Source: Naegleria gruberi (taxonomy: Eukaryota). Taken from it: 43,883 nt of DNA. Position numbers and translations under genes: made by a program. The notes under the pieces were generated by a model that was given only the letters and a program-made list of their open reading frames with translations, did not search any database and was not told the origin of the DNA. The stretch lies in assembly GCA_000004985.1 (NCBI GenBank), contig GG738970.1. One strand, 5' to 3'. Below, piece after piece: positions 1 through 13,976 of this stretch (position 1 is the first letter of the stretch; every line of letters starts with the position of its first letter).

Positions 1-1252
1 TTGATCTGTTCAATACTGATTGAGGAATGAAAGTTTTAATTTCAGCAAGCCACTCAACTGTATTCTTCAAATTATTGAAAATTGAGTTCACTTCTCTAAA
101 CATGGAACTGTTATTCGAAACACTACCCAAATCAAGAACTTTGATTCTTTCGAATTGCTTCTCCAAGAACTTCATAGGTCTCGAAACAACTAGTCCAGTA
201 ACAAAACTTCCAACAATTCCAAGAACAATAATTCCAACAGTGACACCAATAGAAATTGAAGTTGTCAAAATCAAAGCTTCAGTCACCTCTGATTCGTACA
301 AAACAAAGAAAATGTTCCACTGCATATTTTCCAAAACATACTTGTACGGAGTAATGATATAGCTAACACCATCAGATTCTCCCACAATTTTCATCACAGA
401 TGGCAAAATACTAAATGTTCTATTGTTCAACTCGTAGAATTGTTTCATTAGTGAACCAGCATTTCTCGACTTGACATCAAAGATGTTTGTGCTATTTAAA
501 CCATCTCCTGAAATGGTATCGATGGATCCACCAATGACAATGAAATTGTCCTGAGCTACCAGAACGTAACCTCTTCCCAGTAATTCAATCTTGGAGAGAA
601 AGTTTACAATCGTTTCTAGTGAAAGATTAACTTTGGCCAATCCAACCAATGATTTCGTCTTGTTTAGTTTGTAAATTTCTGGATCGTACATTAATTGAGA
701 ATAATAAATGGCAACTGTACTTCCCAAAACCTTGTATGGTTCTCCATACACTCCTTCCAACCCCTTTTCGTAATAGTTTTTCAATGTATAAATGAAGAAA
801 TCTTGTTTGGCAGGTACGTAAGGAGTCAAGTCAACTGTAGAATTGACTTTTACAATGTCTCCTGTGGTGATATTCACAATATCTCTAATGGTGCCTGGAT
901 ATCCATATGGTTGATAGGCAAAAACTGGAAATGGATTACTCGTGGTTCCACTAATAGTATAGGTATATCTGGATGGGAGAGGAACGCTGAAGAAGAATCC
1001 ACAACCAGTAGTTCGAAATTCTACAAACTTTGGAAACAAGTAATTTCTAAACATGGGAATGGTCACAACACCTGTGGTATATTCTCTGGCCATGGTTTTG
1101 GTCAATTTGGCGATTGGTGTCATAACACCATCGAGATAGGTTATAATCTTTCTTCCAGATTCGTTTATGAGCTTGGTAGACAAATCATTAATTGCCTTCT
1201 CTGTTACCAGATAAGAAGATAGCCAAACCAATAAACACCCACTTAGAATCAT
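1..1252 (-). CDS. Two-TM extracellular sensor protein, N-terminal 417 aa: signal-anchor/TM1, double-Cache-like ectodomain, TM2 and HAMP linker. The output domain lies beyond the window start and may be a class III adenylate/guanylate cyclase.
   Basis: I translated the minus strand by hand from the ATG at 1252 (MILSGCLLVWLSSYLV...) down to position 1 and found no stop in 417 codons. The nearest upstream in-frame stop is the TAG at 1361-1363. Hydrophobic TM1 is aa 2-16. The ~300-aa ectodomain carries seven N-x-S/T sequons and a Cache-like core (SLVGLAKVNLSLETIVNFLSKIELLGRGYVLVAQDNFIVIGG, compare the Cache consensus lGVlgvDisL...GYvflvDkdG). TM2 is aa 327-356 (ILTTSISIGVTVGIIVLGIVGSFVTGLVV, plus 185-274). 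The HAMP-like segment is SRPMKFLEKQFERIKVLDLGS...REVNSIFNNLKNTV. The last residues, EIKTFIPQSVLNRS, resemble the LLxxxLPxSVAxxL start of cyclase homology domains. The plus-strand track ORFs 27..362 and 695..1222 are antisense shadows of this gene. Confidence 0.6.
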   Translation of the reverse strand, partial: MILSGCLLVWLSSYLVTEKAINDLSTKLINESGRKIITYLDGVMTPIAKLTKTMAREYTTGVVTIPMFRNYLFPKFVEFRTTGCGFFFSVPLPSRYTYTISGTTSNPFPVFAYQPYGYPGTIRDIVNITTGDIVKVNSTVDLTPYVPAKQDFFIYTLKNYYEKGLEGVYGEPYKVLGSTVAIYYSQLMYDPEIYKLNKTKSLVGLAKVNLSLETIVNFLSKIELLGRGYVLVAQDNFIVIGGSIDTISGDGLNSTNIFDVKSRNAGSLMKQFYELNNRTFSILPSVMKIVGESDGVSYIITPYKYVLENMQWNIFFVLYESEVTEALILTTSISIGVTVGIIVLGIVGSFVTGLVVSRPMKFLEKQFERIKVLDLGSVSNNSSMFREVNSIFNNLKNTVEWLAEIKTFIPQSVLNRS

Positions 1253-1287
1253 TACTGAAATAATTGAAACAATAAAGAGATTGAGTG

Positions 1288-1296
1288 GAATAATAC
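1288..1296. repeat. Left 9-bp target-site duplication (GAATAATAC) of the MULE-like element
   Basis: The same 9-mer, GAATAATAC, recurs in direct orientation at 3950-3958. Each copy sits immediately outside a terminus that begins 5'-GAGT (left) or ends ...ACTC-3' (right). Confidence 0.45.
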
Positions 1297-1400
1297 GAGT
1301 TGATACAAATAAACGGTGAGACGGGCAACGGGATGAACGGGATTCAGGCCGTTCCTTATTCTAAACGGGAGATTCTCTCCGCTTAATACATCTCACTGGT
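1297..1400. repeat. Left terminal / subterminal repeat region of the MULE-like element (AACGGG motif x3-4)
   Basis: A GC-richer island in AT-rich DNA. It reads gagttgatacaaataaacggtgagacgggcaacgggatgaacgggattcaggccgttcc...ctaaacggga. Confidence 0.45.
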
Positions 1401-1677
1401 ATTCAAATAAGGAGTGAGAGAATAGTAACTTTTGAAAAAAGAAGGAGACAATAAATTATATACGAATTTCTTTTTTTACTTATCATGAAAGCAAAAAAAA
1501 GAAACAATATTTTACCTTAGTAACCATTCACTTCGCTCAGTCTGCCTTAGGAAGTCATACGTTGAGAGAATAACATTTCTTAAATTTTCTCTCTAGTAAA
1601 CTTATTGCTAAAGATTTTATTCGATTGCTTTAAAAAAAATGGTTTTCGATTACAAATCTGTCATCAAAGCAAACAAT

Positions 1678-1770
1678 AAGAAGTTTCACTCTGATACACT
1701 ACACCAGTTTCTGGGTATTGTGGTGGTTTTGTTACTACAACTGGTGTAGTGTATCAGAGTGAAACTTCTT
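1678..1770. repeat. Perfect 30-bp inverted repeat (hairpin) with a 33-nt loop, overlapping the 5' end of the transposase ORF
   Basis: The left arm 1678-1707 (aagaagtttcactctgatacactacaccag) is the exact reverse complement of the right arm 1741-1770 (ctggtgtagtgtatcagagtgaaacttctt). Confidence 0.85.
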
Positions 1771-3650
1771 TTTCTGACAAAGCTCAATATTCATTTCGAC
1801 AAGACCCAAAATATTGGGTTGAAGTGAATAAAGAGCAATTCGAGGTTCTCATTTTGAGATGTAATGGCGTTAAAACTTGTTCTAAATGTCCAAATGTATA
1901 TCCAGTCAGTTGCAAGAAAAAGCTATGTAAGACTCATGGTGAACAACTAGAAAAAATTGGGTGTGAGGTAAAGTTCTATCAATTAAAGAAAAGGAATGAA
2001 GCATTATTCTTCTTTACTGGCGATGGAATTCATTCACACGATGTCCCACCACCGAATAAGGTTGACAAGGATGAAGAACAAGCTATTGTGTTGTCATTTC
2101 AACAAAATCCAACTCTTACACCAAAACAAGCTCTGCTTGGTGTTGGAACTCATGATTTGCCTTACCTTAGAAATCCTGCTTTATTGAACATTTCCAAGTA
2201 TCAAAATTTCAAAAGAAAAGCCCTTCTCAAAGTTTCAATGGATAATCCTAATCCAATGTCTACATTGTTTAAAGTAGAACAAGAAATACCAATTTTATTG
2301 AAAGAGTATTTTGAGAAAGAAAGTTTCACTATTCATGTCTCAGATTTAATGACAACATATATGAGACAGTTTTATTTCAATGGTGTTGATACTTTTGCTG
2401 TTATTCAGTTTCCAATTCAATCTTTAATCACTAACTCTTGTGATTTTCTTGTGATTGACTTGAAACACGCTTCCAAATCAGGTCCATTCACTAACTGTCT
2501 TGGAATTTCAAGCTATATTGATACTCCTAAAGGAGGTTTGCCAATGCATTTATCTAGAATACTAATGGATAACTTCAACTATTATCAATCCTTCAAACTT
2601 TGGCTTATTACTTTAGCTGATGATGGTGTAGATTTGACTGATTTATTTAAAAATCAACTAAAGGGTATATTGATTGATTTCTCTCAATCTCAATTAGCTG
2701 GATTGAAAAAAGCCGTTGCAGAATATGTTGTCGATGGAGAAATGCTTATTACAAAGCTAGCTTCTGGTTGCTTTGTTCATTTTTTGAGAAGTGTCAAAAG
2801 AGCTATAAAAACACTCTCTATCTCTGAAGAACACCAAAAGCTGATTCTTGAATTGGCTAAAACTATTCAATTTGTCAAAACCAAGAAGGAGATTGTGTCA
2901 ATATTAGATTCAATTGTTTGTATCGCTTCTTCTCTCGGTTCCTGGAGAAATTGGTGGATCATTCCTGAAGTTTTGAATTTATTGCATTCAGCTAGTCACC
3001 GTCAGAATCCTGAAATTGTTCCAGATAACACAAATAATCAAGAGATTCTCCATGCTGTAGACGTTCCATGCTATTTCGCTAATGCACTTGTTGAATGTGC
3101 TATGCTGTTGAAACATGATATACTAGCAGTTTCCAAATTTGTTGGTTTGAATCAAGGATTCAAGATTTCCAACATATCCACAACTAAAGAGGATAGAGAG
3201 AAAAGAAATGACAGAAGAAAGGAGCTTAAGAATGCTGCTCAAACAGCCAAGTATGATTCTAGACCACCTGATAGTTTGACAAATGGTTTAGAAGCTGGAT
3301 TTACATCAGTTGATGTTTTGAAATCATTTGTCAGCGCTTGGGATAAGACAACTGTTACTGAGCTTGGTGAAATCCTTGTTGATGATGAAAAAGATGAAGA
3401 TTTCTTAATGCCTGTTTCTCCAAATCATTCCTCATCCAAGAGTACCAGTTCTCCTTCTACACCAAAGGCCAAGAAGAAGAGAAAGAGATCTCCAAAAGCT
3501 GCCACTCCTACAACAAGTTCAAATTCAGCTACTTCTCCATCTTTCTCCAGACAGCTTAGAGAAATAGCTAAACAATCATCCTCAACAGGAACTTCTCTTC
3601 CAAGAAATCTACGTCCGAATAGATTCTCTCTTCCTGGCAGGTTGCAATAA
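1749..3650 (+). CDS. MULE/MuDR-family transposase with an N-terminal WRKY-GCM1 (FLYWCH-like) zinc finger. The frame is open from 1695, and the first codon in the ORF track is GTG, not ATG.
   Basis: The N-terminus reads DPKYW...LRCNGVKTCSKCPNV...FFFTGDGIHSHDVPPP, a WRKY-type C-x-C...H-x-H finger of the kind typical at MULE transposase N-termini. The core reads FYFNGVDTFAV...GILIDFSQSQLAGLKKAVAEYV...SGCFVHFLRSV, matching the MULE DDE region (vDgTf / ilTDgd.al.kAi / C..H motif). There is a possible degenerate SWIM-like PCYFANALVECAMLLKH. The C-terminus is basic and S/T-rich (KAKKKRKRSPK). The intact 633 codons lie inside the TSD-flanked element. Confidence 0.65.
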   Translation: MYQSETSFSDKAQYSFRQDPKYWVEVNKEQFEVLILRCNGVKTCSKCPNVYPVSCKKKLCKTHGEQLEKIGCEVKFYQLKKRNEALFFFTGDGIHSHDVPPPNKVDKDEEQAIVLSFQQNPTLTPKQALLGVGTHDLPYLRNPALLNISKYQNFKRKALLKVSMDNPNPMSTLFKVEQEIPILLKEYFEKESFTIHVSDLMTTYMRQFYFNGVDTFAVIQFPIQSLITNSCDFLVIDLKHASKSGPFTNCLGISSYIDTPKGGLPMHLSRILMDNFNYYQSFKLWLITLADDGVDLTDLFKNQLKGILIDFSQSQLAGLKKAVAEYVVDGEMLITKLASGCFVHFLRSVKRAIKTLSISEEHQKLILELAKTIQFVKTKKEIVSILDSIVCIASSLGSWRNWWIIPEVLNLLHSASHRQNPEIVPDNTNNQEILHAVDVPCYFANALVECAMLLKHDILAVSKFVGLNQGFKISNISTTKEDREKRNDRRKELKNAAQTAKYDSRPPDSLTNGLEAGFTSVDVLKSFVSAWDKTTVTELGEILVDDEKDEDFLMPVSPNHSSSKSTSSPSTPKAKKKRKRSPKAATPTTSSNSATSPSFSRQLREIAKQSSSTGTSLPRNLRPNRFSLPGRLQ

Positions 3651-3849
3651 TAAAATTGACTTATTGAATTTTTTGTTCTATTTGTTTTATAATTGGAAAA
3701 TCTCTTTATTGCAATAGACTAGAGTTGAATAATGAAATATATCCATTTTTGAATTGTTACACACTTTCTTTGTAATTCTAAATTCAGTCATTTCACCTTT
3801 TAAGCGTTTTTACAGTGTTCCTTAGTTAGAGAGCTACCTTACTTTCCTG

Positions 3850-3949
3850 TTCCGTTTCTTACTCCAAACTGGACCGTCCTACCGTTTCTTATTTGAAACG
3901 GATTCCGTTAGACTGGCTTTCCCGCTATCCCGTTTCTTAGTATTCACTC
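3850..3949. repeat. Right terminal / subterminal repeat region of the MULE-like element (CCGTTTCTTA x3 plus ccgtt)
   Basis: The sequence is ttccgtttcttactcc...ctaccgtttcttatttgaaacggattccgtta...tatcccgtttcttagtattcactc. It is inverted relative to the left-end AACGGG copies. It also contains a small hairpin, ccgtttc-ttattt-gaaacgg. Confidence 0.45.
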
Positions 3950-3958
3950 GAATAATAC
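3950..3958. repeat. Right 9-bp target-site duplication (GAATAATAC)
   Basis: Identical to 1288-1296. Confidence 0.45.
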
Positions 3959-4748
3959 CTGTGCAGCAAGTACGCGGCTGTGTCTTTGGATTGAGTGGTT
4001 CTTTGATAGCCACAACGGATGGAGTTGTCTGTTCCTCATACTCACTTCCTGATGGTGCAACTTTCGTCATTGAAACTGAAGGTTATGATGATGTTTTTTC
4101 TTATTGTGTTTCAATACGTTATTGTAGTTTTATGACATAACTTTTTTCACCTCAACACCAATCATTTTTCCATCTCATCCATGTTGATAGATTAAAATCA
4201 TGATTAACTAACAATTTCAATGTATGCCATATCGTGAGATGAAAATTGTAAGGATTTGGCAATTATAATAAAGATTGTTGTTTGATTTCTTGTGATGTTT
4301 TAAAATAAAGCACATAAAAACACAAAACTTGCCGCGATTTGAGATAAAAAGGAAATTGTAGTGTACTCCCATAGCTTCAAAACACATCAAGAAGGCAAAC
4401 AACAGGCAAACGATTTTCGTTAAATTCTAAGCCCACCATTATCTCAAAACCTGGCATGTTTTTCCAAATTGCTTAAAGCAGGATACTCAAACAACTTTTA
4501 ATTTCCCTACAGCAAATTATTGTAGTTTTCGAAGGATTTTTTTTACACTCTAAGACCTCGACAATTCAACAAATCAAACTCTTTGGACATGAGGATTTGG
4601 CAGTCTCGTGCTTGTTACGTAGAGGTGAGAAGTAGAGAGTGATAGGGTGAGAGTTTAACTCCTGATGTTTTGTGCTCAAGGAGGTTTCGTTCCAATTCTT
4701 GTTTGTAAGGAGGCAATTAAGTTAAGGCTTGGTGCTCTCCAAATAAAA

Positions 4749-5021
4749 ATGTCGGAACCAACTAACAGCAACACTCTGGACGGCACTCAAGAAATTATGT
4801 GGGAGGAAACACCTAACAAAGAAGCCGAGGAAATTGAAGAAATACTTCAACAATATTTGCACTCATTGTGTGATATTTATAATACAAAGTATAAAACAAA
4901 TCATACAATCGGTGCTATATGTGATACAATTTTCACCAAGAATGGAATTGAGTTGTTTGTTGGTGGTTGCACAGAGAGTAAGGCAAAAGGAATTGAAATA
5001 ATTGAACAATTATTAACTTAG
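4749..5021 (+). CDS. Small acidic hypothetical protein (about 90 aa)
   Basis: The ATG at 4749 sits in an A-rich context (aaataaaaATGtcg). The product reads MSEPTNSNTLDGTQEIMWEETPNKEAEEIEEILQQYLHSLCDIYNTKYKTNHTIGAICDTIFTKNGIELFVGGCTESKAKGIEIIEQLLT*. The track ORF starts at an upstream ATG at 4665, which I consider less likely. I recognise no family. Confidence 0.4.
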   Translation: MSEPTNSNTLDGTQEIMWEETPNKEAEEIEEILQQYLHSLCDIYNTKYKTNHTIGAICDTIFTKNGIELFVGGCTESKAKGIEIIEQLLT

Positions 5022-5136
5022 TAGTACCGTTTCAGTTTTACCTAGTTGTAATAACACCGGAAATTTATTTATGTTTTTACAATAAAGCTGAAGTAGTCAA
5101 ATGATGATATTTAAATATATATATAATATATATATA
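5021..5136. repeat. About 120-bp segment duplicated in direct orientation at 5418-5540, on either side of the 50-N gap. It is the 3' flank of the 4749 gene, contains an aataaa, and ends in a (TA)n run.
   Basis: Both copies read tagtaccgtttcagttttacctagttgtaataa(a)caccggaaatttatttatgtttttaacaataaa(a)gctgaa(a)gtagtcaaatgatgatattt(a/g)aaatatatat, differing only by 1-bp indels. Confidence 0.75.
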
Positions 5137-5186
5137 NNNNNNNNNNNNNNNNNNNNNNNNNNNNNNNNNNNNNNNNNNNNNNNNNN
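5137..5186. other. Assembly gap (50 N)
   Basis: Run of n. Confidence 0.95.
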
Positions 5187-5310
5187 AAATGTCTGGTAAT
5201 AACAAGAATACTGGAAAGACACAAAGGAAACAACACGCTGTATCATCTCCATCTCATCCTAAACAAAGAGTGGACCCACCACTCCCTCCCAAAAACCGTT
5301 GCGCTCATTA
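5187..5310 (+). pseudogene. Duplicated 5' fragment of the minus-strand gene that starts at 7964. It encodes MSGNNKNTGKTQRKQHAVSSPSHPKQRVD, then diverges, and is immediately gap-adjacent.
   Basis: 5187-5208 and 5221-5274 are identical to the reverse complement of 7967-7870, with a 12- versus 9-nt substituted block in between. Homology ends after aaacaaagagtgga, and the frame stops at a TAA at 5308-5310. Confidence 0.45.
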
Positions 5311-5317
5311 ATCTTTG

Positions 5318-5415
5318 GTAAGGGATTAATTTCTGAGTGAGGTTTCATCAATGTTTCGGAAACATTGTAAAATTTTCTTTATTTCACTAACATTTCTTTC
5401 TCATATTCACCTTAG
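5318..5415 (+). other. Intron-like segment: GTAAGG donor, ACTAAC branch point 24 nt upstream of a TTAG acceptor
   Basis: gtaagg lies at 5318-5323, actaac at 5386-5391 and ttag ends at 5415. The duplicated 3'-flank repeat begins right after the acceptor. I cannot place the element in a coherent gene model. Confidence 0.3.
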
Positions 5416-5417
5416 TA

Positions 5418-5530
5418 GTACCGTTTCAGTTTTACCTAGTTGTAATAAACACCGGAAATTTATTTATGTTTTTAACAATAAAAGCTGAAAGTAGTCAAAT
5501 GATGATATTTGAAATATATATATATTTGAA

Positions 5531-5540
<10 letters not shown>
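5418..5540. repeat. Second copy of the 3'-flank repeat (see 5021-5136)
   Basis: Near-identical to 5021-5136. Confidence 0.75.

Positions 5541-5560
<20 letters not shown>
5511..5560. repeat. (TA)n microsatellite, interrupted
   Basis: Contains atatatatatatttgaaatatatatatatatatatatatatatat. Confidence 0.9.
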
Positions 5561-5561
<1 letters not shown>

Positions 5562-6036
5562 AATTGATGTTAGTTCCATTTATTTTTAAACTTATCACTC
5601 CATCAACCTCCATGAATCTAGTTGTCTGTTTCTTGTTGTAAGAGTTTTTCTTTGTTTTAATAAACAACTATCATAACTCTACTTTTACTACTTCTAATAA
5701 CAGTGTTTTTGTAATATTTTTACAAAGTTTGTTCTTTCTTTGAATTCATTTTCTTTGGATTTACCATAAAGATTATTACTTCCAATCAATAATCTTCATA
5801 ATGATAATACCAACTTTAGAAGATTTTTAAAAATTAATGGGTTTTTATATTATATATATTACTTTGTTAAGCTTTTCTAAATTTCAAATCGATAAATTTT
5901 TGAAAATTTATTTTAGCTTCTTAATTTTCAATTAATTTCATTATCTTTATATCTAAATCACTTTTAAATGATTTTTCAGATAAACCAATTTAACCACCAT
6001 CTTATAAACCAACTTTCAACAAAAATTTTTTCGGAT

Positions 6037-6061
6037 GTATATATATATATATATATATATA
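6037..6061. repeat. (TA)n microsatellite
   Basis: Contains gtatatatatatatatatatatatat. Confidence 0.9.
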
Positions 6062-6062
6062 A

Positions 6063-6340
6063 ATGCATGCGAAAATTTTTATTTTATTTTTATTAAATAT
6101 CTAATATGACAAACATATCCCACCAACGCATGTATGAAAATTCGTATTTTTCATTGAAATACTAATAAATTTCTAGGTTTTATCGAAATTTTTTTCAAAA
6201 AAACATTTTTTAAAAAAATACCAAAACTCAACATTTTTTCCTTTTTTTAATTTACATATTTTTACTACTCGATATTAAATGGTAAACATGGTATGGAAAA
6301 AATTGTATCATCAAGATTCTAATAAATATGATTGAAGTTG
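6063..6340. repeat. Degenerate ~45-bp tandem minisatellite-like repeat (3 copies)
   Basis: The three units are catgcgaaaattttta...attaaatatctaatatgacaaacat, catgtatgaaaattcgtatttttcattgaaatactaataaatttcta and catggtatggaaaaaattgtatcatcaagattctaataaatatgatt. They share a CATG..GAAAA..T..CTAATAAAT skeleton. Confidence 0.3.
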
Positions 6341-6480
6341 TTTAACCATTGATTTTTAAGACAATTAACGCCGATAACTTGATCTCTAATAAAAAGAAAG
6401 TACTTTTTATAGCTTTTCATATAAAGATTTATTACACTCAAATTAAATTTTAACTACAACACTTGATAAATATTTCAAAT

Positions 6481-6483
<3 letters not shown>

Positions 6484-6526
<43 letters not shown>
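6484..6526. repeat. (TA)n microsatellite (about 21 units)
   Basis: Perfect ta repeat. Confidence 0.9.
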
Positions 6527-6529
<3 letters not shown>

Positions 6530-6927
6530 TCTCAAAGTCATTTACAACTAATAAAGTGACAATATACAACACTTGACTTACCAAGGTAACTAAATTACTA
6601 GATTCTAAAGGAAATACAATATATATTCATGGTATTACTCATCATACTCAAGTTTCTATTATCTTAAAATGTTATTACGGCCAATTCAAACAGGCAACAA
6701 AAGACACACATTATCAGACATTGTAATAACAAATGCTCAACCTTTTGTTATAATATGTGAAATCTGTTGACAGAACAAAATGAAATACAAACAGTTGTTT
6801 CGATAGTAAACACACAAAATAAAGTTCAAATAATATTTAGACAATTGGGTATTAAAGCTCAGGGGCTGAACCACCTTAATGGTGAAACAGCCTGGAACCT
6901 GCTTTGAAGGATGTAAATCTTTATTAA

Positions 6928-7386
6928 GGAATGTGGGCATGCAAGTTGGATTTAAAGAAAGGTTATTTTCAAGTTCCAGTAAGGAAACAACACAAAGTCC
7001 TATTAGGATTCATCTTCGAAGGCAAAACTTACCACTTTCAATGCCTTCCGTTCGGTTTAAGTACAGCCCCTCGGTTATTCACCAAAATAATGAAGGAAGT
7101 TATCAAGAAATGGAGGCAGAGAGGCACAATCATATTTATTTACATAGACGACATGTTAATATTAGACAATTCAGCAAAAGAGGTTTCCGAAAAGATAAGA
7201 ACAATTCTTTCAGATTTAAACTTGCTAGGTTGGCTAGTTCAAGAAGAAAAATCTATACTTATCCCAACTCAATCAATAGATTTTCTTGGTCTCCACTTCG
7301 ATCTGGAAAAGGGAAAAGTGCAAATCCCATTAGAAAAACAAGAGTTACCATTTCTCAATCTTTTACAAACTTGTACAATAATGTGA
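6928..7386 (+). pseudogene. Reverse transcriptase relic (DIRS / LTR-retrotransposon type), truncated at both ends; motif A through the region just past YxDD only
   Basis: The frame opens right after a TAA at 6925-6927. It reads LDLKKGYFQVPV...GFIFEGKTYHFQCLPFGLSTAPRLFTKIM...IFIYIDDMLIL...IDFLGLHFDLEKGKVQIP. This matches the RT LDLxxgY motif, the PFGLxxAPxxFTK motif (which fits DIRS/BEL-like better than gypsy's PFGLxNAP..FQ) and YxDD. The upstream RT motifs 1-2 are missing, and so are RNase H and integrase/YR. The frame ends at a TGA at 7387-7389. Confidence 0.75.
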
Positions 7387-7964
7387 GATTGGGCAAGTAG
7401 TAAAGGATAACCTTTACTTCTAAATTCTTTTCCACCATAGACATCAGGAACAGGGGCGTCAACTTCTTCTCTGAACACTCTTTGTAGAAAAGCCATTCTA
7501 TTCTTGAATTCAGAGTCAGCTGAATATTGTTCATTAGAAGTTGACAATATCAACTCAAATATATCATCTGAAGATAACTCGTCATTAATTGATTCTCCAG
7601 TGATTGATTGATAGCAATCACGTAGGTACTCTTTCAATGAAATACCTTCAGAATCTCTCTCTCTTTTACCAGTACCGAAATTGTTGTTCGAATCAGATTG
7701 TTTAAGATTAAGAGCATTAGCGAGAGCCGCAGCACCTGAAGATACAAGACCGGAATTTTGGTTTTCAGGGTTGGCGATACGGTCTTGGCTTTGTTGATAT
7801 GTAGTAGTAGAATCACCATCAGCATAAATTCTAGCTGTTGTGTCGGTAGCTGATGAAGATGAATCAGATGGGCTGAATACTTCCACTCTTTGTTTAGGAT
7901 GAGATGGAGATGATACAGCGTGTTGTTTCCTTTGTGGAGTTCCTTTCTTGTTATTACCAGACAT
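7269..7964 (-). CDS. Ser/Thr-rich low-complexity hypothetical protein. The start is probably the ATG at 7964 (MSGNNKKGTPQRKQHAVSSPSHPKQRVE...), and the 3' boundary is uncertain.
   Basis: The track gives an ORF at 7985..7269. The second ATG at 7964 coincides with the start of the duplicated copy at 5187 (aaATGtctggtaataac). The last ~40 codons (7269-7386) are antisense to the RT relic and are probably a chance extension or lie beyond an unrecognised splice. I recognise no family. Confidence 0.4.
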   Translation of the reverse strand: MSGNNKKGTPQRKQHAVSSPSHPKQRVEVFSPSDSSSSATDTTARIYADGDSTTTYQQSQDRIANPENQNSGLVSSGAAALANALNLKQSDSNNNFGTGKRERDSEGISLKEYLRDCYQSITGESINDELSSDDIFELILSTSNEQYSADSEFKNRMAFLQRVFREEVDAPVPDVYGGKEFRSKGYPLLLAQSHIIVQVCKRLRNGNSCFSNGICTFPFSRSKWRPRKSID

Positions 7965-8001
7965 TTCGAATAATTTTTTGAGCATGGAAAATTTTTAACA
8001 A

Positions 8002-8100
8002 CTCGGAATTGAGGTCGCTTATTAAGCATATCGGAATATTTTCACTTTATTTTGTAATTTACAATCGGAAACAAGTCCATTCCTCATATTCAATCGGAAT
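8002..8100. promoter_or_regulatory. Array of four (A)TCGGAAT motifs spaced about 30 bp apart in the divergent intergenic region, upstream of the 7964 minus-strand gene
   Basis: The copies are actcggaatt at 8001, tatcggaatatt at 8029, caatcggaaac at 8062 and caatcggaat at 8091. Similar xTCGGAAT words recur at about 43004 and 43469. Confidence 0.25.
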
Positions 8101-8354
8101 TCAACACTACTAATAAAGAGTTCTTACCAAGAAATCACCGAAAAACTCATGTAAAATGAAGAATGGAAAATCACTTTTAAGGGGTAAATAAATGTAATCT
8201 GAACAGATAAATGAATTTGCGAGGAATTATGATGAAAAGGATGTAGTGAGAATGGGATTTGATAAAGACAGGATGTGTAAAAAACATGATGAGGAGCATG
8301 ATGAAGAATAAAAGGGAAATGATTTTTCTAACATAGATAAATATAATTTTTGTT

Positions 8355-8356
<2 letters not shown>

Positions 8357-8386
<30 letters not shown>
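8357..8386. repeat. (TA)n microsatellite
   Basis: Contains acatatatatatatatatatatatatatatatt. Confidence 0.9.
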
Positions 8387-8941: not shown

Positions 8942-8976
8942 GTAAGTACTAGTTGTTTAAAACAACAACTTTGAAG
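8942..8976 (+). other. Candidate 35-bp mini-intron (GTAAGT...AAG) joining the 8535 exon to the 8977/8993 exon in frame. The alternative 58-bp intron 8942-8999 has canonical signals but breaks the frame.
   Basis: Exon 1 ends in phase 2 (..caa ac|). Only an acceptor at 8975-8976 gives ...QTDDPFNMVDECLDR in frame. The canonical alternative uses a TTAAC branch at 8988-8992 and a TAG at 8997-8999, and leads to a TGA 11 codons later. Confidence 0.25.
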
Positions 8977-9478
8977 AGATGACCCCTTTAACATGGTAGA
9001 CGAATGTTTGGATCGAGCCCTGAAATTTTGTGACATCCAATCCCATTCTTTCAAGTCATCTTTGAAAAGGGATTGTCATGTAATTGCTTCAGTTGATACC
9101 ACTCTAAATCACATATGCCTTGTTATAGAACACCAAAGAGACAATTGCTCTTCCATTTGGAAACACAAAGACTTTGCAAAAATGCTCTTATTGATGAGAA
9201 CATGTTTGAAATCTTCCATGTTAACAGCTCAAAGAAACAGAAAACATTGCCCAAAGCCACTAAGAACATTTGGAATTTTGTCTTCTAGAGACAACATATT
9301 CATACTCTGCATGCAAGCCGATTTACTTTCAGTTGAGAATGTTCATATCGAGACTTTTGGAATTGAGCACGCATTGACCTCGCATGCATTCTCGTTGAAC
9401 AAAGAAGAGGAAAGAGAACAATTTATCAAGACACTTACAGCTCATTTAGATTATTTCAGAGCTATTTCTCTTGTTGAA
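8977..9478 (+). CDS. Hypothetical protein, probable exon 2 (...MVDECLDRALKFCDIQSHSFKSSLKRDCHVIASVD...AHLDYFRAISLVE), 3' end lost in the gap
   Basis: The frame is open from 8977. It has an internal ATG at 8993 in good context (ttaacATGg) and runs uninterrupted to the N-run at 9479. I recognise no family. Confidence 0.45.
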
Positions 9479-12400
9479 NNNNNNNNNNNNNNNNNNNNNN
9501 NNNNNNNNNNNNNNNNNNNNNNNNNNNNNNNNNNNNNNNNNNNNNNNNNNNNNNNNNNNNNNNNNNNNNNNNNNNNNNNNNNNNNNNNNNNNNNNNNNNN
9601 NNNNNNNNNNNNNNNNNNNNNNNNNNNNNNNNNNNNNNNNNNNNNNNNNNNNNNNNNNNNNNNNNNNNNNNNNNNNNNNNNNNNNNNNNNNNNNNNNNNN
9701 NNNNNNNNNNNNNNNNNNNNNNNNNNNNNNNNNNNNNNNNNNNNNNNNNNNNNNNNNNNNNNNNNNNNNNNNNNNNNNNNNNNNNNNNNNNNNNNNNNNN
9801 NNNNNNNNNNNNNNNNNNNNNNNNNNNNNNNNNNNNNNNNNNNNNNNNNNNNNNNNNNNNNNNNNNNNNNNNNNNNNNNNNNNNNNNNNNNNNNNNNNNN
9901 NNNNNNNNNNNNNNNNNNNNNNNNNNNNNNNNNNNNNNNNNNNNNNNNNNNNNNNNNNNNNNNNNNNNNNNNNNNNNNNNNNNNNNNNNNNNNNNNNNNN
10001 NNNNNNNNNNNNNNNNNNNNNNNNNNNNNNNNNNNNNNNNNNNNNNNNNNNNNNNNNNNNNNNNNNNNNNNNNNNNNNNNNNNNNNNNNNNNNNNNNNNN
10101 NNNNNNNNNNNNNNNNNNNNNNNNNNNNNNNNNNNNNNNNNNNNNNNNNNNNNNNNNNNNNNNNNNNNNNNNNNNNNNNNNNNNNNNNNNNNNNNNNNNN
10201 NNNNNNNNNNNNNNNNNNNNNNNNNNNNNNNNNNNNNNNNNNNNNNNNNNNNNNNNNNNNNNNNNNNNNNNNNNNNNNNNNNNNNNNNNNNNNNNNNNNN
10301 NNNNNNNNNNNNNNNNNNNNNNNNNNNNNNNNNNNNNNNNNNNNNNNNNNNNNNNNNNNNNNNNNNNNNNNNNNNNNNNNNNNNNNNNNNNNNNNNNNNN
10401 NNNNNNNNNNNNNNNNNNNNNNNNNNNNNNNNNNNNNNNNNNNNNNNNNNNNNNNNNNNNNNNNNNNNNNNNNNNNNNNNNNNNNNNNNNNNNNNNNNNN
10501 NNNNNNNNNNNNNNNNNNNNNNNNNNNNNNNNNNNNNNNNNNNNNNNNNNNNNNNNNNNNNNNNNNNNNNNNNNNNNNNNNNNNNNNNNNNNNNNNNNNN
10601 NNNNNNNNNNNNNNNNNNNNNNNNNNNNNNNNNNNNNNNNNNNNNNNNNNNNNNNNNNNNNNNNNNNNNNNNNNNNNNNNNNNNNNNNNNNNNNNNNNNN
10701 NNNNNNNNNNNNNNNNNNNNNNNNNNNNNNNNNNNNNNNNNNNNNNNNNNNNNNNNNNNNNNNNNNNNNNNNNNNNNNNNNNNNNNNNNNNNNNNNNNNN
10801 NNNNNNNNNNNNNNNNNNNNNNNNNNNNNNNNNNNNNNNNNNNNNNNNNNNNNNNNNNNNNNNNNNNNNNNNNNNNNNNNNNNNNNNNNNNNNNNNNNNN
10901 NNNNNNNNNNNNNNNNNNNNNNNNNNNNNNNNNNNNNNNNNNNNNNNNNNNNNNNNNNNNNNNNNNNNNNNNNNNNNNNNNNNNNNNNNNNNNNNNNNNN
11001 NNNNNNNNNNNNNNNNNNNNNNNNNNNNNNNNNNNNNNNNNNNNNNNNNNNNNNNNNNNNNNNNNNNNNNNNNNNNNNNNNNNNNNNNNNNNNNNNNNNN
11101 NNNNNNNNNNNNNNNNNNNNNNNNNNNNNNNNNNNNNNNNNNNNNNNNNNNNNNNNNNNNNNNNNNNNNNNNNNNNNNNNNNNNNNNNNNNNNNNNNNNN
11201 NNNNNNNNNNNNNNNNNNNNNNNNNNNNNNNNNNNNNNNNNNNNNNNNNNNNNNNNNNNNNNNNNNNNNNNNNNNNNNNNNNNNNNNNNNNNNNNNNNNN
11301 NNNNNNNNNNNNNNNNNNNNNNNNNNNNNNNNNNNNNNNNNNNNNNNNNNNNNNNNNNNNNNNNNNNNNNNNNNNNNNNNNNNNNNNNNNNNNNNNNNNN
11401 NNNNNNNNNNNNNNNNNNNNNNNNNNNNNNNNNNNNNNNNNNNNNNNNNNNNNNNNNNNNNNNNNNNNNNNNNNNNNNNNNNNNNNNNNNNNNNNNNNNN
11501 NNNNNNNNNNNNNNNNNNNNNNNNNNNNNNNNNNNNNNNNNNNNNNNNNNNNNNNNNNNNNNNNNNNNNNNNNNNNNNNNNNNNNNNNNNNNNNNNNNNN
11601 NNNNNNNNNNNNNNNNNNNNNNNNNNNNNNNNNNNNNNNNNNNNNNNNNNNNNNNNNNNNNNNNNNNNNNNNNNNNNNNNNNNNNNNNNNNNNNNNNNNN
11701 NNNNNNNNNNNNNNNNNNNNNNNNNNNNNNNNNNNNNNNNNNNNNNNNNNNNNNNNNNNNNNNNNNNNNNNNNNNNNNNNNNNNNNNNNNNNNNNNNNNN
11801 NNNNNNNNNNNNNNNNNNNNNNNNNNNNNNNNNNNNNNNNNNNNNNNNNNNNNNNNNNNNNNNNNNNNNNNNNNNNNNNNNNNNNNNNNNNNNNNNNNNN
11901 NNNNNNNNNNNNNNNNNNNNNNNNNNNNNNNNNNNNNNNNNNNNNNNNNNNNNNNNNNNNNNNNNNNNNNNNNNNNNNNNNNNNNNNNNNNNNNNNNNNN
12001 NNNNNNNNNNNNNNNNNNNNNNNNNNNNNNNNNNNNNNNNNNNNNNNNNNNNNNNNNNNNNNNNNNNNNNNNNNNNNNNNNNNNNNNNNNNNNNNNNNNN
12101 NNNNNNNNNNNNNNNNNNNNNNNNNNNNNNNNNNNNNNNNNNNNNNNNNNNNNNNNNNNNNNNNNNNNNNNNNNNNNNNNNNNNNNNNNNNNNNNNNNNN
12201 NNNNNNNNNNNNNNNNNNNNNNNNNNNNNNNNNNNNNNNNNNNNNNNNNNNNNNNNNNNNNNNNNNNNNNNNNNNNNNNNNNNNNNNNNNNNNNNNNNNN
12301 NNNNNNNNNNNNNNNNNNNNNNNNNNNNNNNNNNNNNNNNNNNNNNNNNNNNNNNNNNNNNNNNNNNNNNNNNNNNNNNNNNNNNNNNNNNNNNNNNNNN

Positions 12401-13976
12401 NNNNNNNNNNNNNNNNNNNNNNNNNNNNNNNNNNNNNNNNNNNNNNNNNNNNNNNNNNNNNNNNNNNNNNNNNNNNNNNNNNNNNNNNNNNNNNNNNNNN
12501 NNNNNNNNNNNNNNNNNNNNNNNNNNNNNNNNNNNNNNNNNNNNNNNNNNNNNNNNNNNNNNNNNNNNNNNNNNNNNNNNNNNNNNNNNNNNNNNNNNNN
12601 NNNNNNNNNNNNNNNNNNNNNNNNNNNNNNNNNNNNNNNNNNNNNNNNNNNNNNNNNNNNNNNNNNNNNNNNNNNNNNNNNNNNNNNNNNNNNNNNNNNN
12701 NNNNNNNNNNNNNNNNNNNNNNNNNNNNNNNNNNNNNNNNNNNNNNNNNNNNNNNNNNNNNNNNNNNNNNNNNNNNNNNNNNNNNNNNNNNNNNNNNNNN
12801 NNNNNNNNNNNNNNNNNNNNNNNNNNNNNNNNNNNNNNNNNNNNNNNNNNNNNNNNNNNNNNNNNNNNNNNNNNNNNNNNNNNNNNNNNNNNNNNNNNNN
12901 NNNNNNNNNNNNNNNNNNNNNNNNNNNNNNNNNNNNNNNNNNNNNNNNNNNNNNNNNNNNNNNNNNNNNNNNNNNNNNNNNNNNNNNNNNNNNNNNNNNN
13001 NNNNNNNNNNNNNNNNNNNNNNNNNNNNNNNNNNNNNNNNNNNNNNNNNNNNNNNNNNNNNNNNNNNNNNNNNNNNNNNNNNNNNNNNNNNNNNNNNNNN
13101 NNNNNNNNNNNNNNNNNNNNNNNNNNNNNNNNNNNNNNNNNNNNNNNNNNNNNNNNNNNNNNNNNNNNNNNNNNNNNNNNNNNNNNNNNNNNNNNNNNNN
13201 NNNNNNNNNNNNNNNNNNNNNNNNNNNNNNNNNNNNNNNNNNNNNNNNNNNNNNNNNNNNNNNNNNNNNNNNNNNNNNNNNNNNNNNNNNNNNNNNNNNN
13301 NNNNNNNNNNNNNNNNNNNNNNNNNNNNNNNNNNNNNNNNNNNNNNNNNNNNNNNNNNNNNNNNNNNNNNNNNNNNNNNNNNNNNNNNNNNNNNNNNNNN
13401 NNNNNNNNNNNNNNNNNNNNNNNNNNNNNNNNNNNNNNNNNNNNNNNNNNNNNNNNNNNNNNNNNNNNNNNNNNNNNNNNNNNNNNNNNNNNNNNNNNNN
13501 NNNNNNNNNNNNNNNNNNNNNNNNNNNNNNNNNNNNNNNNNNNNNNNNNNNNNNNNNNNNNNNNNNNNNNNNNNNNNNNNNNNNNNNNNNNNNNNNNNNN
13601 NNNNNNNNNNNNNNNNNNNNNNNNNNNNNNNNNNNNNNNNNNNNNNNNNNNNNNNNNNNNNNNNNNNNNNNNNNNNNNNNNNNNNNNNNNNNNNNNNNNN
13701 NNNNNNNNNNNNNNNNNNNNNNNNNNNNNNNNNNNNNNNNNNNNNNNNNNNNNNNNNNNNNNNNNNNNNNNNNNNNNNNNNNNNNNNNNNNNNNNNNNNN
13801 NNNNNNNNNNNNNNNNNNNNNNNNNNNNNNNNNNNNNNNNNNNNNNNNNNNNNNNNNNNNNNNNNNNNNNNNNNNNNNNNNNNNNNNNNNNNNNNNNNNN
13901 NNNNNNNNNNNNNNNNNNNNNNNNNNNNNNNNNNNNNNNNNNNNNNNNNNNNNNNNNNNNNNNNNNNNNNNNNNNN
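9479..13976. other. Assembly gap (4498 N)
   Basis: Run of n. The track ORFs 8993..14104 and 9471..13985 are artefacts of translating N. Confidence 0.95.

What the first reader, a model, noticed from the sequence alone, without database searches (positions are those of the whole stretch)
1639..1805. The transposase ORF has no in-frame ATG before its zinc finger, and a perfect 30-bp hairpin sits exactly there
The track's first M at 1749 is a GTG codon. Reading the same frame upstream, it is open from a TGA at 1692-1694, but the first in-frame ATG is about 165 codons in, after the WRKY-like finger. A functional protein therefore needs a spliced upstream exon or non-AUG initiation.

One possible splice runs from the ATG at 1485 and a GTAACC donor at 1520 to an AG at 1758-1759, which restores the frame as MKAKKRNNILP-Y-ETSFSD. 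The 30-bp perfect inverted repeat (1678-1707 / 1741-1770) spans this junction. Its loop plus right arm reads like a polypyrimidine tract plus TAG. Such a stable hairpin could regulate splicing or translation of the transposase. Alternatively it could be a nested foldback/MITE insertion that has decapitated the ORF.
Basis: seen in the sequence. Interest (0 to 1): 0.5.

Follow-up and report, generated by a model that had tools for sequence, protein, structure and literature searches.

The report
Hairpin scar breaks a transposase gene
A perfect 32-bp hairpin near the start of a Mutator-like transposon gene in the amoeba Naegleria gruberi is most likely a mutation scar: a short stretch of the gene was copied backwards just upstream of itself, which knocked the gene out of frame. 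It does not look like a splicing or translation control element.

Summary
Two perfectly complementary 32-nt arms (1678-1709 / 1739-1770, 29-nt loop) give an RNA fold of about -60 kcal/mol (z about -10). The long ORF (1695-3650) has no in-frame ATG until codon 164.

ATG 1639 has the same context (AAAAAATGGT) as the start of the closest relative, in N. lovaniensis, whose ORF has no intron and no hairpin. ATG 1639 is one base out of frame with the long ORF. Both frames are open only at 1695-1746, inside the hairpin.

The right arm encodes a family-conserved motif (G-V-V-Y-Q-S). The left arm is its reverse complement, and removing it (32 nt, 2 mod 3) restores a 659-codon ORF. Four relatives have no structure there.

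Best reading: a copy-specific template-switch inverted duplication that frameshifted this copy. The annotated 89-nt intron (1715-1803) removes conserved residues and looks like an annotation patch.

The element (1297-3949) has a 9-bp target-site duplication (TSD), a GCM1/WRKY-type finger and a Mutator/IS256-like DDE fold. It sits in a host coding exon. No transcript data or other copies could be reached. Ordinary, low interest.

The parts
1297..3949 (+). Complete 2653-bp DNA transposon (Mutator-like) carrying one transposase gene
   Evidence: Removing 1297-3949 plus one copy of the 9-bp duplication restores one continuous minus-strand host ORF. The ends align as imperfect inverted repeats.
1288..1296 (.). 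Left copy of the 9-bp target-site duplication, GAATAATAC
   Evidence: Identical 9-mers flank the element on both sides.
3950..3958 (.). Right copy of the 9-bp target-site duplication, GAATAATAC
1297..1316 (+). Left terminal inverted repeat, GAGTTGATACAAATAAACGG, followed by subterminal AACGG(G) motifs
   Evidence: 16 of 20 bases match the reverse complement of the right end.
3930..3949 (-). Right terminal inverted repeat (reverse complement GAGTGAATACTAAGAAACGG)
1639..1749 (+). Ancestral start codon (ATG 1639) and the 36-codon frame it now opens (MVFDYKSVIKANNKKFHSDTLHQFLGIVVVLLLQLV), closed by TAG 1747-1749
   Evidence: The context AAAAAAAATGGT and the MV.F start match the N. lovaniensis relative. 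The annotated model P0001 also uses this start. Translation.
1678..1709 (+). Left hairpin arm, inferred to be the derived, reverse-complement copy. It carries the TGA (1692-1694) that closes the main frame upstream.
   Evidence: It is identical to the reverse complement of 1739-1770. Deleting it joins ATG 1639 in frame to the main ORF, giving 659 codons.
1710..1738 (+). Hairpin loop (29 nt, T/G-rich), with a small internal stem when folded as RNA
1739..1770 (+). Right hairpin arm, inferred to be the source copy. It encodes T-G-V-V-Y-Q-S-E-T-S in the main frame.
   Evidence: It aligns with the conserved motif of relatives: PGLLYQS, PNILYSY, PNVVYHQ, NGILYQL. The alignment to P0002 starts at residue 22-23, which is nt 1758-1761.
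1695..3650 (+). Main transposase reading frame (651 codons after the TGA; stop TAA 3648-3650)
   Evidence: It is 36% identical over about 590 residues to N. lovaniensis P0002, E = 5e-78.
1857..2042 (+). GCM1/WRKY-type zinc-finger DNA-binding domain (from RCNGVKTC to GIHSHD)
2448..3050 (+). DDE catalytic core with candidate motifs LVIDLKH (2448-2468), LIDFSQ (2670-2687), GCFVHF (2766-2783) and TNNQEIL (3030-3050)
1715..1803 (+). The 89-nt 'intron' implied by the public gene model P0001 (GTATTG...ACAAG), judged to be an annotation patch
   Evidence: It is the only GT..AG join that reproduces the N-terminus of P0001. It removes GVVYQSETSFSDKAQYSFRQ, which aligns with conserved residues of relatives.

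Best explanation
The window is a small Naegleria gruberi scaffold. Positions 1297-3949 are a Mutator-like DNA transposon that recently inserted into a coding exon of a host gene on the minus strand.

Its transposase gene originally began at ATG 1639 and ran without an intron into the long ORF. In this copy, or its immediate lineage, a single template-switch mutation copied 32 nt of the gene's own coding sequence in reverse-complement orientation to a point 29 nt upstream. The source was 1739-1770, which encodes the conserved G-V-V-Y-Q-S segment. The copy is now 1678-1709.

That one event did two things. It created the perfect hairpin, and it changed the length by 2 (mod 3). This separated the start codon from the rest of the gene and introduced a TGA in the main frame.

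The hairpin is therefore a mutational scar that decapitates this copy, not a designed regulator. The intron in the public gene model is software bridging the frameshift.

Shown:
- the hairpin itself;
- the frame offset, confined to 1695-1746;
- the orthologous start codon;
- conservation of the right-arm peptide;
- absence of the hairpin in relatives;
- restoration of the frame when the left arm is removed.

Inferred:
- the mutational mechanism;
- that the left arm was inserted (net +32 nt) rather than overwriting an older imperfect arm with a net 1-nt loss;
- that no transposase is made from this copy.
For: Organism: the ORF matches only 'predicted protein [Naegleria gruberi]' on a contig of exactly the window's length.

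Hairpin: perfect 32-nt arms, with z about -10 as RNA and as DNA.

Start codon: the N. lovaniensis relative P0002/L001 starts at an ATG in the context AAAAAATGGT. It runs uninterrupted through MVRF...KVIQYPLPNILYSY...IQYS. The window has AAAAAAAATGGT at 1639, and the public model P0001 uses that ATG.

Frames: the ATG frame closes at TAG 1747, and the main frame opens after TGA 1692. Any single frameshift must therefore lie in 1695-1746, inside the hairpin.

Direction of copying: the right arm encodes TGVVYQSETS, which aligns with the motif conserved in P0002, P0004, P0006 and P0017. Two perfectly complementary coding arms cannot both be free to evolve as protein, so the left arm is the derived one.

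Frame restoration: deleting the left arm gives one ORF of 659 codons from ATG 1639.

Not a family feature: the first 150 nt of the coding sequence give z = +1.2, +0.7, -1.3 and -0.4 in four relatives, against -9.2 here. There is no inverted repeat at the N. lovaniensis N-terminus.

Mechanism is established elsewhere. Template switching creates perfect reverse-complement stems in a single event (PMC8794818, PMC5453318). Double-strand-break repair raises quasipalindrome and frameshift mutations (bioRxiv 10.1101/2023.08.09.552703). Cut-and-paste elements are restored by exactly that kind of repair; this last point is my inference.
Against: - No second copy of this element could be obtained, so 'private to this copy' rests on distant relatives (36% identity or less), not on sister copies.
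- In the ATG frame the left arm reads KKFHSDTLHQ. This resembles KSIHHEHLSK at the matching position of the N. lovaniensis protein (score 16, p about 0.03-0.07).
- A reconstruction that keeps the left arm and adds one base aligns somewhat better to that protein than the deletion reconstruction (score 27 against 16). An older imperfect hairpin that was later 'perfected' is therefore possible.
- Microhomology at the inferred junctions is short (2-4 nt), so the switch points cannot be reconstructed.
- The main frame is intact for 651 codons and the insertion is recent. This fits a very young mutation, but it also fits a gene that is still expressed in some way.
- A frame restored by removing 32 nt has a 1 in 3 chance of being coincidence.
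Confidence: 0.6

Rival explanations
1. A real spliceosomal intron rescues the frame. Exon 1 runs from ATG 1639 to 1714. An intron starting at GTATTG (1715) ends at 1803 (the public model), or at 1749 or 1782. The hairpin may influence which splice site is chosen.
For: Several GT..AG joins from ATG 1639 give an open frame, and one of them is the deposited gene model P0001. A CTGAC branch-like motif lies at 1773-1777 (sequence). A study of the related N. fowleri set the minimum intron length for read mapping to 30 bp, based on predicted genes (PMC8296547).
Against: The N. lovaniensis relative has no intron in this region. The 89-nt and 68-nt versions delete residues that align with conserved positions (GVVYQS and, in the 89-nt version, QYS). 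The only usable donor, GTATTG, lacks the +5 G of the usual GTAAGT/GTATGT donor, which I judge from general knowledge of splice sites. The 35-nt version is very short. Gene-prediction software routinely bridges frameshifts with short introns, and the N. lovaniensis model does the same at an internal frameshift.
Confidence: 0.12
2. The frameshift is a sequencing or assembly error. The real element has one more base in the hairpin region (for example in GGG 1713-1715 or TTTT 1727-1730), or two fewer. The gene would then be intact from ATG 1639, with a real hairpin lying inside the coding sequence.
For: Adding one base anywhere in 1695-1746 gives a 670-codon ORF. That ORF's N-terminus aligns slightly better with the N. 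lovaniensis protein (27 against 16). The scaffold is poor: only 12.3 kb of its 43.9 kb is called sequence. Strong hairpins are classic sites of Sanger band compression, which I state from general knowledge.
Against: There is no direct evidence of an error. A perfect 32-bp palindrome inside a coding sequence would still need a template-switch origin, and such events usually change length.
Confidence: 0.12
3. The hairpin is a functional cis-element of the transposon. It could throttle translation, or act as a Dicer substrate that silences the family, working like a miniature Mu killer.
For: The stem is very stable and lies 39 nt downstream of the start codon. [quoted passage not shown] Template switching has been proposed as a source of new miRNA hairpins (bioRxiv 10.1101/2023.04.19.537475, title and abstract). 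Generic miRNA-precursor models give weak matches.
Against: No relative has the hairpin. The Rfam matches are far below threshold (36 bits against 180) and reflect only hairpin shape. No small-RNA or expression data are available. Any silencing effect would be a side effect of the mutation rather than evidence of design.
Confidence: 0.06
4. Translational recoding rescues the protein. Candidates are non-AUG initiation at GTG 1749, termination-reinitiation at the overlapping UAGUG (TAG 1747-1749 and GTG 1749-1751), ribosomal bypassing of part of the hairpin, or -1 frameshifting.
For: The main ORF is in the -1 frame relative to the ATG frame. The stop of the short ORF overlaps the GTG by one base (sequence). 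A strong structure is present.
Against: The overlap region contains no X XXY YYZ slippery heptamer. The main frame has a TGA at 1692 inside the left arm, so a shift upstream of the hairpin would terminate at once. None of these mechanisms is known for eukaryotic cut-and-paste transposases, to my knowledge.
Confidence: 0.04
5. A foreign foldback element or MITE inserted into the 5' end of the gene.
For: The feature is compact: two arms and a loop, 93 bp in all.
Against: The right arm encodes the family-conserved motif. No target-site duplication flanks the 93 bp; the flanks are AGCAAACAAT and TTTCTGACAA. The arm occurs nowhere else in the window.
Confidence: 0.02

Closest known systems
Short template-switch / quasipalindrome mutations (Ripley-type; four-point model of Loytynoja and Goldman)
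   Same: A reverse-complement copy of an adjacent segment appears in one step. It produces a perfect stem where relatives have none, and it changes the length (PMC5453318, PMC8794818; arms and frame).
   Different: No ancestral or sister sequence is available, so the four switch points and the direction of the event are inferred rather than reconstructed. A 32-nt arm seems long to me for such events, though I did not check published size distributions.
Mutator superfamily (MULE) DNA transposons with WRKY-GCM1-type DNA-binding domains
   Same: 9-bp target-site duplication and terminal inverted repeats. DDE fold closest to a Mutator/IS256-family transposase. N-terminal GCM1/WRKY-like finger. A C-x-x-H motif lies between the second D and the E.
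   Different: Neither this protein nor ten relatives match any Pfam model, including the MULE, MuDR DNA-binding and SWIM domains. The terminal repeats are short and imperfect (16 of 20).
Maize Mu killer
   Same: A Mutator-type element in which part of the 5' transposase region is present as an inverted duplication able to form a hairpin RNA (PMC3440606).
   Different: Mu killer is described as giving a hairpin RNA of about 4 kb, transcribed from a flanking gene, with demonstrated silencing. Here the stem is 32 bp, lies inside an otherwise complete element, and has no functional data.
Frameshift-bridging 'introns' in automated eukaryotic gene models
   Same: An 89-nt GT..AG interval whose only visible merit is that it restores the frame. 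The N. lovaniensis relative's model does the same at an internal frameshift.
   Different: Nothing distinguishes this case. It is the ordinary situation.

Membership tests
Mutator superfamily (MULE) transposon | Target-site duplication of 8-11 bp, typically 9 | tested here: met
   Identical GAATAATAC at 1288-1296 and 3950-3958. Removing the element and one copy restores the host ORF.
Mutator superfamily (MULE) transposon | Terminal inverted repeats | tested here: met
   The ends match at 16 of the first 20 bases, with shared AACGG motifs further in. They are short and imperfect compared with classical MuDR.
Mutator superfamily (MULE) transposon | DDE transposase with the Mutator/IS256 type of RNase H-like fold | tested here: met
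Mutator superfamily (MULE) transposon | Sequence match to the Pfam MULE transposase domain | tested here: not met
   No Pfam family at E up to 1 for the window protein. None at E up to 0.01 for ten relatives, apart from a chromodomain in P0004.
WRKY-GCM1 zinc-finger superfamily | Cys/His zinc-finger beta-sheet DNA-binding domain | tested here: met
Template-switch (quasipalindrome) mutation | The new segment is the exact reverse complement of a nearby segment | tested here: met
   1678-1709 equals the reverse complement of 1739-1770, 32 of 32 bases.
Template-switch (quasipalindrome) mutation | The ancestral state lacks the perfect repeat | tested here: inconclusive
   Four relatives at 36% protein identity or less have no hairpin. 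No sister copy or close outgroup could be obtained.
Spliceosomal intron (public gene model, 1715-1803) | Removed from mature mRNA | not testable with these tools
   No transcript data are reachable. Exact-product look-ups found nothing.
Spliceosomal intron (public gene model, 1715-1803) | The interval is non-coding, so it is not conserved as protein and the intron position is shared with relatives | tested here: not met
   The interval encodes GVVYQSETSFSDKAQYSFRQ, which aligns with relatives. The N. lovaniensis gene has no intron there.
Programmed -1 ribosomal frameshift site | A slippery heptamer 5-9 nt upstream of the structure, with the shifted frame open from the slip site | tested here: not met
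   There is no X XXY YYZ heptamer in the overlap. The shifted frame has a TGA at 1692-1694 inside the left arm.
Foldback element / MITE | A foreign repeat unit with its own target-site duplication and other genomic copies | tested here: not met
   There is no flanking duplication. The right arm is conserved coding sequence. There is no other copy in the window. The rest of the genome could not be searched.

The most novel reading that the evidence does not exclude
The hairpin might define a structure-guided processing event in the transposase pre-mRNA. In this reading, base pairing of the arms brings two weak or non-canonical splice sites together, and excision restores the frame. One example is removal of 1677-1771, which is 95 nt (2 mod 3). 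This would resemble the non-conventional, secondary-structure-dependent introns of euglenids, which are relatives of Naegleria within Discoba. That comparison is recalled from memory and was not tested. If true, it would be the first such intron in a heterolobosean, created in a single mutational step inside a transposon.
Probability: 0.03. Interest if true: 0.75.

Novelty: new member of a known kind. Interest (0 to 1): 0.22.

Why it matters
Mostly as a correction. The public N. gruberi protein model for this locus contains an intron that was probably invented to bridge a frameshift, and that intron deletes a conserved N-terminal motif. The locus is better described as a frameshifted copy of a transposon.

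There are two smaller points:
1. It is a clean natural example of a template-switch mutation that builds a perfect 32-bp hairpin and destroys a reading frame in one step.
2. It documents a Naegleria family of Mutator-like transposases with a GCM1/WRKY-type finger that no Pfam model detects. One member inserted recently into a host coding exon, apparently on one haplotype only.

None of this changes current understanding of transposon regulation.

Tried and rejected
Searches for other copies, all negative:
- Two word-indexed protein searches returned only the window's own protein.
- A metagenome scan with peptide patterns found nothing.
- A metagenome scan with a 20-mer from the 5' coding region gave two unrelated chance matches.
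- A viral-contig scan found nothing.
- Exact-product look-ups for P0001, the host allele P0072 and the 633-residue GTG-start ORF found nothing on record.
- A 12-sequence alignment was too divergent to use as a locus-search query.

Other dead ends:
- DNA alignment of the 5' regions of the N. gruberi and N. lovaniensis elements was uninformative at this divergence.
- I tried to derive a Naegleria intron consensus from the N. lovaniensis gene models. This gave mostly ambiguous or frameshift-bridging 'introns' and only one convincing example, a 45-nt GTAAGT...TTAAC...TAG intron.
- A GTAAGT-containing stretch at 8942-8999 in the window does not restore a frame, so I did not use it.
- The contig of relative P0004 (L007) has 92-nt terminal inverted repeats but no clear target-site duplication.
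- The AlphaFold-database fold library was unavailable.

Readings considered and rejected: -1 frameshifting, a MITE insertion and the ATG-1485 splice.
Full report
**What the window is.** The long ORF matches a single database entry, 'predicted protein [Naegleria gruberi]', on a contig of 43,883 bases, which is exactly the window length. Only 12.3 kb of the window is called sequence; the rest is three runs of N. The finding lies in the first 5.1-kb contiguous block.

**The observation.**
- The inverted repeat is real. The perfect arms are 32 nt, 1678-1709 and 1739-1770, separated by 29 nt.
- Positions 1660-1790 fold at -59.8 kcal/mol as RNA (z = -10.0) and at -36.2 kcal/mol as DNA (z = -10.7). 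No shuffle folded as well.
- The long ORF runs from just after a TGA at 1692-1694 to a TAA at 3648-3650. Its first listed start is a GTG at 1749, and its first in-frame ATG is at 2238, codon 164 from that GTG.
- The loop plus right arm is only 55% pyrimidine, so 'polypyrimidine tract' is not accurate.

**The element around it.**
- Identical 9-mers (GAATAATAC) lie at 1288-1296 and 3950-3958.
- Removing 1297-3949 and one 9-mer restores a single continuous minus-strand host ORF, MTKVAPSG...CCTGIIPLNLFIV....
- The ends are imperfect inverted repeats, 16 of 20 bases, with AACGG motifs further in.
- The protein has no Pfam match.
- A profile of the protein and its relatives hits the GCM1 DNA-binding domain, E = 2.9e-5.
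- With the 9-bp duplication, this identifies a Mutator-like element carrying a WRKY/GCM1-type finger.
- A 99%-identical copy of the host protein exists on a 665-kb N. gruberi scaffold. This small scaffold is probably an unmerged haplotype that carries a recent insertion. That is my inference, because the empty site could not be read.

**Where the gene really starts.**
- An exhaustive HMMER search found 70 relatives. The best, P0002 (36% identity, E = 5e-78), is encoded in Naegleria lovaniensis.
- Its ORF begins at an ATG in the context gattAAAAAATGGTc. It runs without interruption through MVRFNPWQLLSDKSIHHEHLSKVIQYPLPNILYSYEGSS...IQYS.
- The window has tttAAAAAAAATGGTt at 1639 (MVF...), and the public model P0001 also starts there. 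ATG 1639 is therefore the orthologous start.

**The frame problem sits inside the hairpin.**
- The ATG-1639 frame reads MVFDYKSVIKANNKKFHSDTLHQFLGIVVVLLLQLV and stops at TAG 1747-1749.
- The main ORF is in the -1 frame. Both frames are open only at 1695-1746, which covers the inner part of the left arm, the loop and the first bases of the right arm.
- The public model bridges this with an 89-nt GT..AG interval, 1715-1803.
- That interval encodes GVVYQSETSFSDKAQYSFRQ. The alignments to P0002 begin at SETSFSDKAQYSF.
- The multiple alignment places GVVYQ under PNILY, PNVVY, NGILY and PGLLY, and places QYS under a conserved Q-[YF]-[SC].
- Together with the intron-less N. lovaniensis gene, this makes the annotated intron unlikely to be real. 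The N. lovaniensis model contains a similar 'intron' that bridges an internal frameshift.

**Which arm is the copy.** In this register, codon position 1 pairs with position 1 and position 2 pairs with position 3. Two perfectly complementary arms therefore cannot both evolve freely as protein, and one must have been written from the other. The right arm carries the conserved motif, so the left arm is the derived one. Deleting exactly the left arm (32 nt, 2 mod 3) joins ATG 1639 to the main frame as one 659-codon ORF. A single event can thus explain both the hairpin and the frameshift.

**Not a family feature.** The first 150 nt of the coding sequence fold with z = -9.2 here. The same stretch gives +1.2 in N. 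lovaniensis and +0.7, -1.3 and -0.4 in three metagenomic relatives. No inverted repeat is found at the N. lovaniensis N-terminus. Rfam gives only far-sub-threshold matches to generic long miRNA hairpins.

**Mechanism.** Template switching during replication or repair makes reverse-complement copies of adjacent sequence. It can create a perfect stem in one step (PMC5453318, PMC8794818). Repair of double-strand breaks greatly increases quasipalindrome and frameshift mutations (bioRxiv 10.1101/2023.08.09.552703). Cut-and-paste transposons are restored by such repair after excision, so they are plausible substrates; this step is my inference. I therefore read the hairpin as a template-switch scar.

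**Caveats.**
- In the ATG frame the left arm (KKFHSDTLHQ) resembles KSIHHEHLSK at the matching place in the N. lovaniensis protein (p about 0.03-0.07).
- A reconstruction that keeps the arm and adds one base aligns a little better to that protein (27 against 16).
- An older imperfect hairpin that was later perfected with a net one-base loss, or a one-base sequencing error in a real in-frame hairpin, therefore remains possible.
- No sister copy or transcript could be reached.

**Rivals.**
- A real intron cannot be excluded without RNA data, but it is disfavoured by the conservation argument and by the weak donor GTATTG.
- -1 frameshifting is excluded in its classical form, because the shifted frame has a TGA inside the left arm and there is no slippery heptamer.
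- A foreign MITE is excluded by the coding conservation of the right arm and by the absence of flanking duplications.
- A silencing side effect like Mu killer (PMC3440606) is conceivable but untested.

**Verdict.** The most likely cause is an ordinary mutational event in one copy of a Mutator-like transposon, compounded by a gene model that hides it. Interest is low.

Noticed in passing
window 1-1296 and 3950-4070 (minus strand): The transposon sits inside the coding exon of a host gene for a membrane protein. The N-terminus MTKVAPSG... is followed by one hydrophobic stretch, then a large domain, then a second hydrophobic stretch. Excising the element precisely restores the ORF. A 99%-identical protein (P0072) is annotated on a 665-kb N. 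gruberi scaffold, so this small scaffold may be an unmerged haplotype with a recent, heterozygous insertion.
   Followed up: partly
window 1747-1751: The stop codon of the 36-codon ATG-1639 frame (TAG 1747-1749) overlaps by one base the GTG (1749-1751) that is the first listed start of the long ORF, giving UAGUG. This resembles the stop-start overlaps used in termination-reinitiation, but it is probably coincidence.
   Followed up: no
L001 (N. lovaniensis PYSW02000044.1) 5001-8341: The closest relative is itself damaged. An internal frameshift near 6100-6170 is bridged by a 50-nt 'intron' in its gene model. The C-terminal 332 codons are present twice in tandem as identical ORFs (6092-7090 and 7343-8341). 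Upstream of its ATG lie three direct repeats of about 31 nt (4785-4886).
   Followed up: partly
window 5017-5125 and 5411-5524: A direct repeat of about 110 nt (matching blocks of 38, 25, 22 and 13 nt) flanks the 50-N gap at 5137-5186. It could be a long terminal repeat or an assembly duplication around the gap.
   Followed up: partly
window 5200-5274 and 7882-7956; 6931-7386: A 75-nt inverted pair, 89% complementary, encodes the same N-terminus (MSGNNK..GKTQRKQHAVSSPSHPKQRV) on opposite strands. Between the two copies lies a reverse-transcriptase-like ORF fragment containing YIDDML. These look like remnants of retroelements, rearranged or nested.
   Followed up: no
window 5520-5560, 6040-6062, 6486-6527, 8360-8386: Several (AT)n microsatellites lie in the AT-rich region between the retroelement fragments.
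   Followed up: no
window 5137-5186, 9479-13976, 15295-42333: 72% of the scaffold is N. The two huge 'ORFs' at about 15000-42300 in the ORF list are artefacts of the gap.
   Followed up: yes
L007 (ENA metagenome contig k119_38196) 385-2625: A relative (P0004, 653 aa, no intron) carries a C-terminal chromodomain (Pfam PF00385, E = 4e-12) and is flanked by inverted repeats of about 92 nt. None of the 11 family members scanned against Pfam matched a transposase model.
   Followed up: partly
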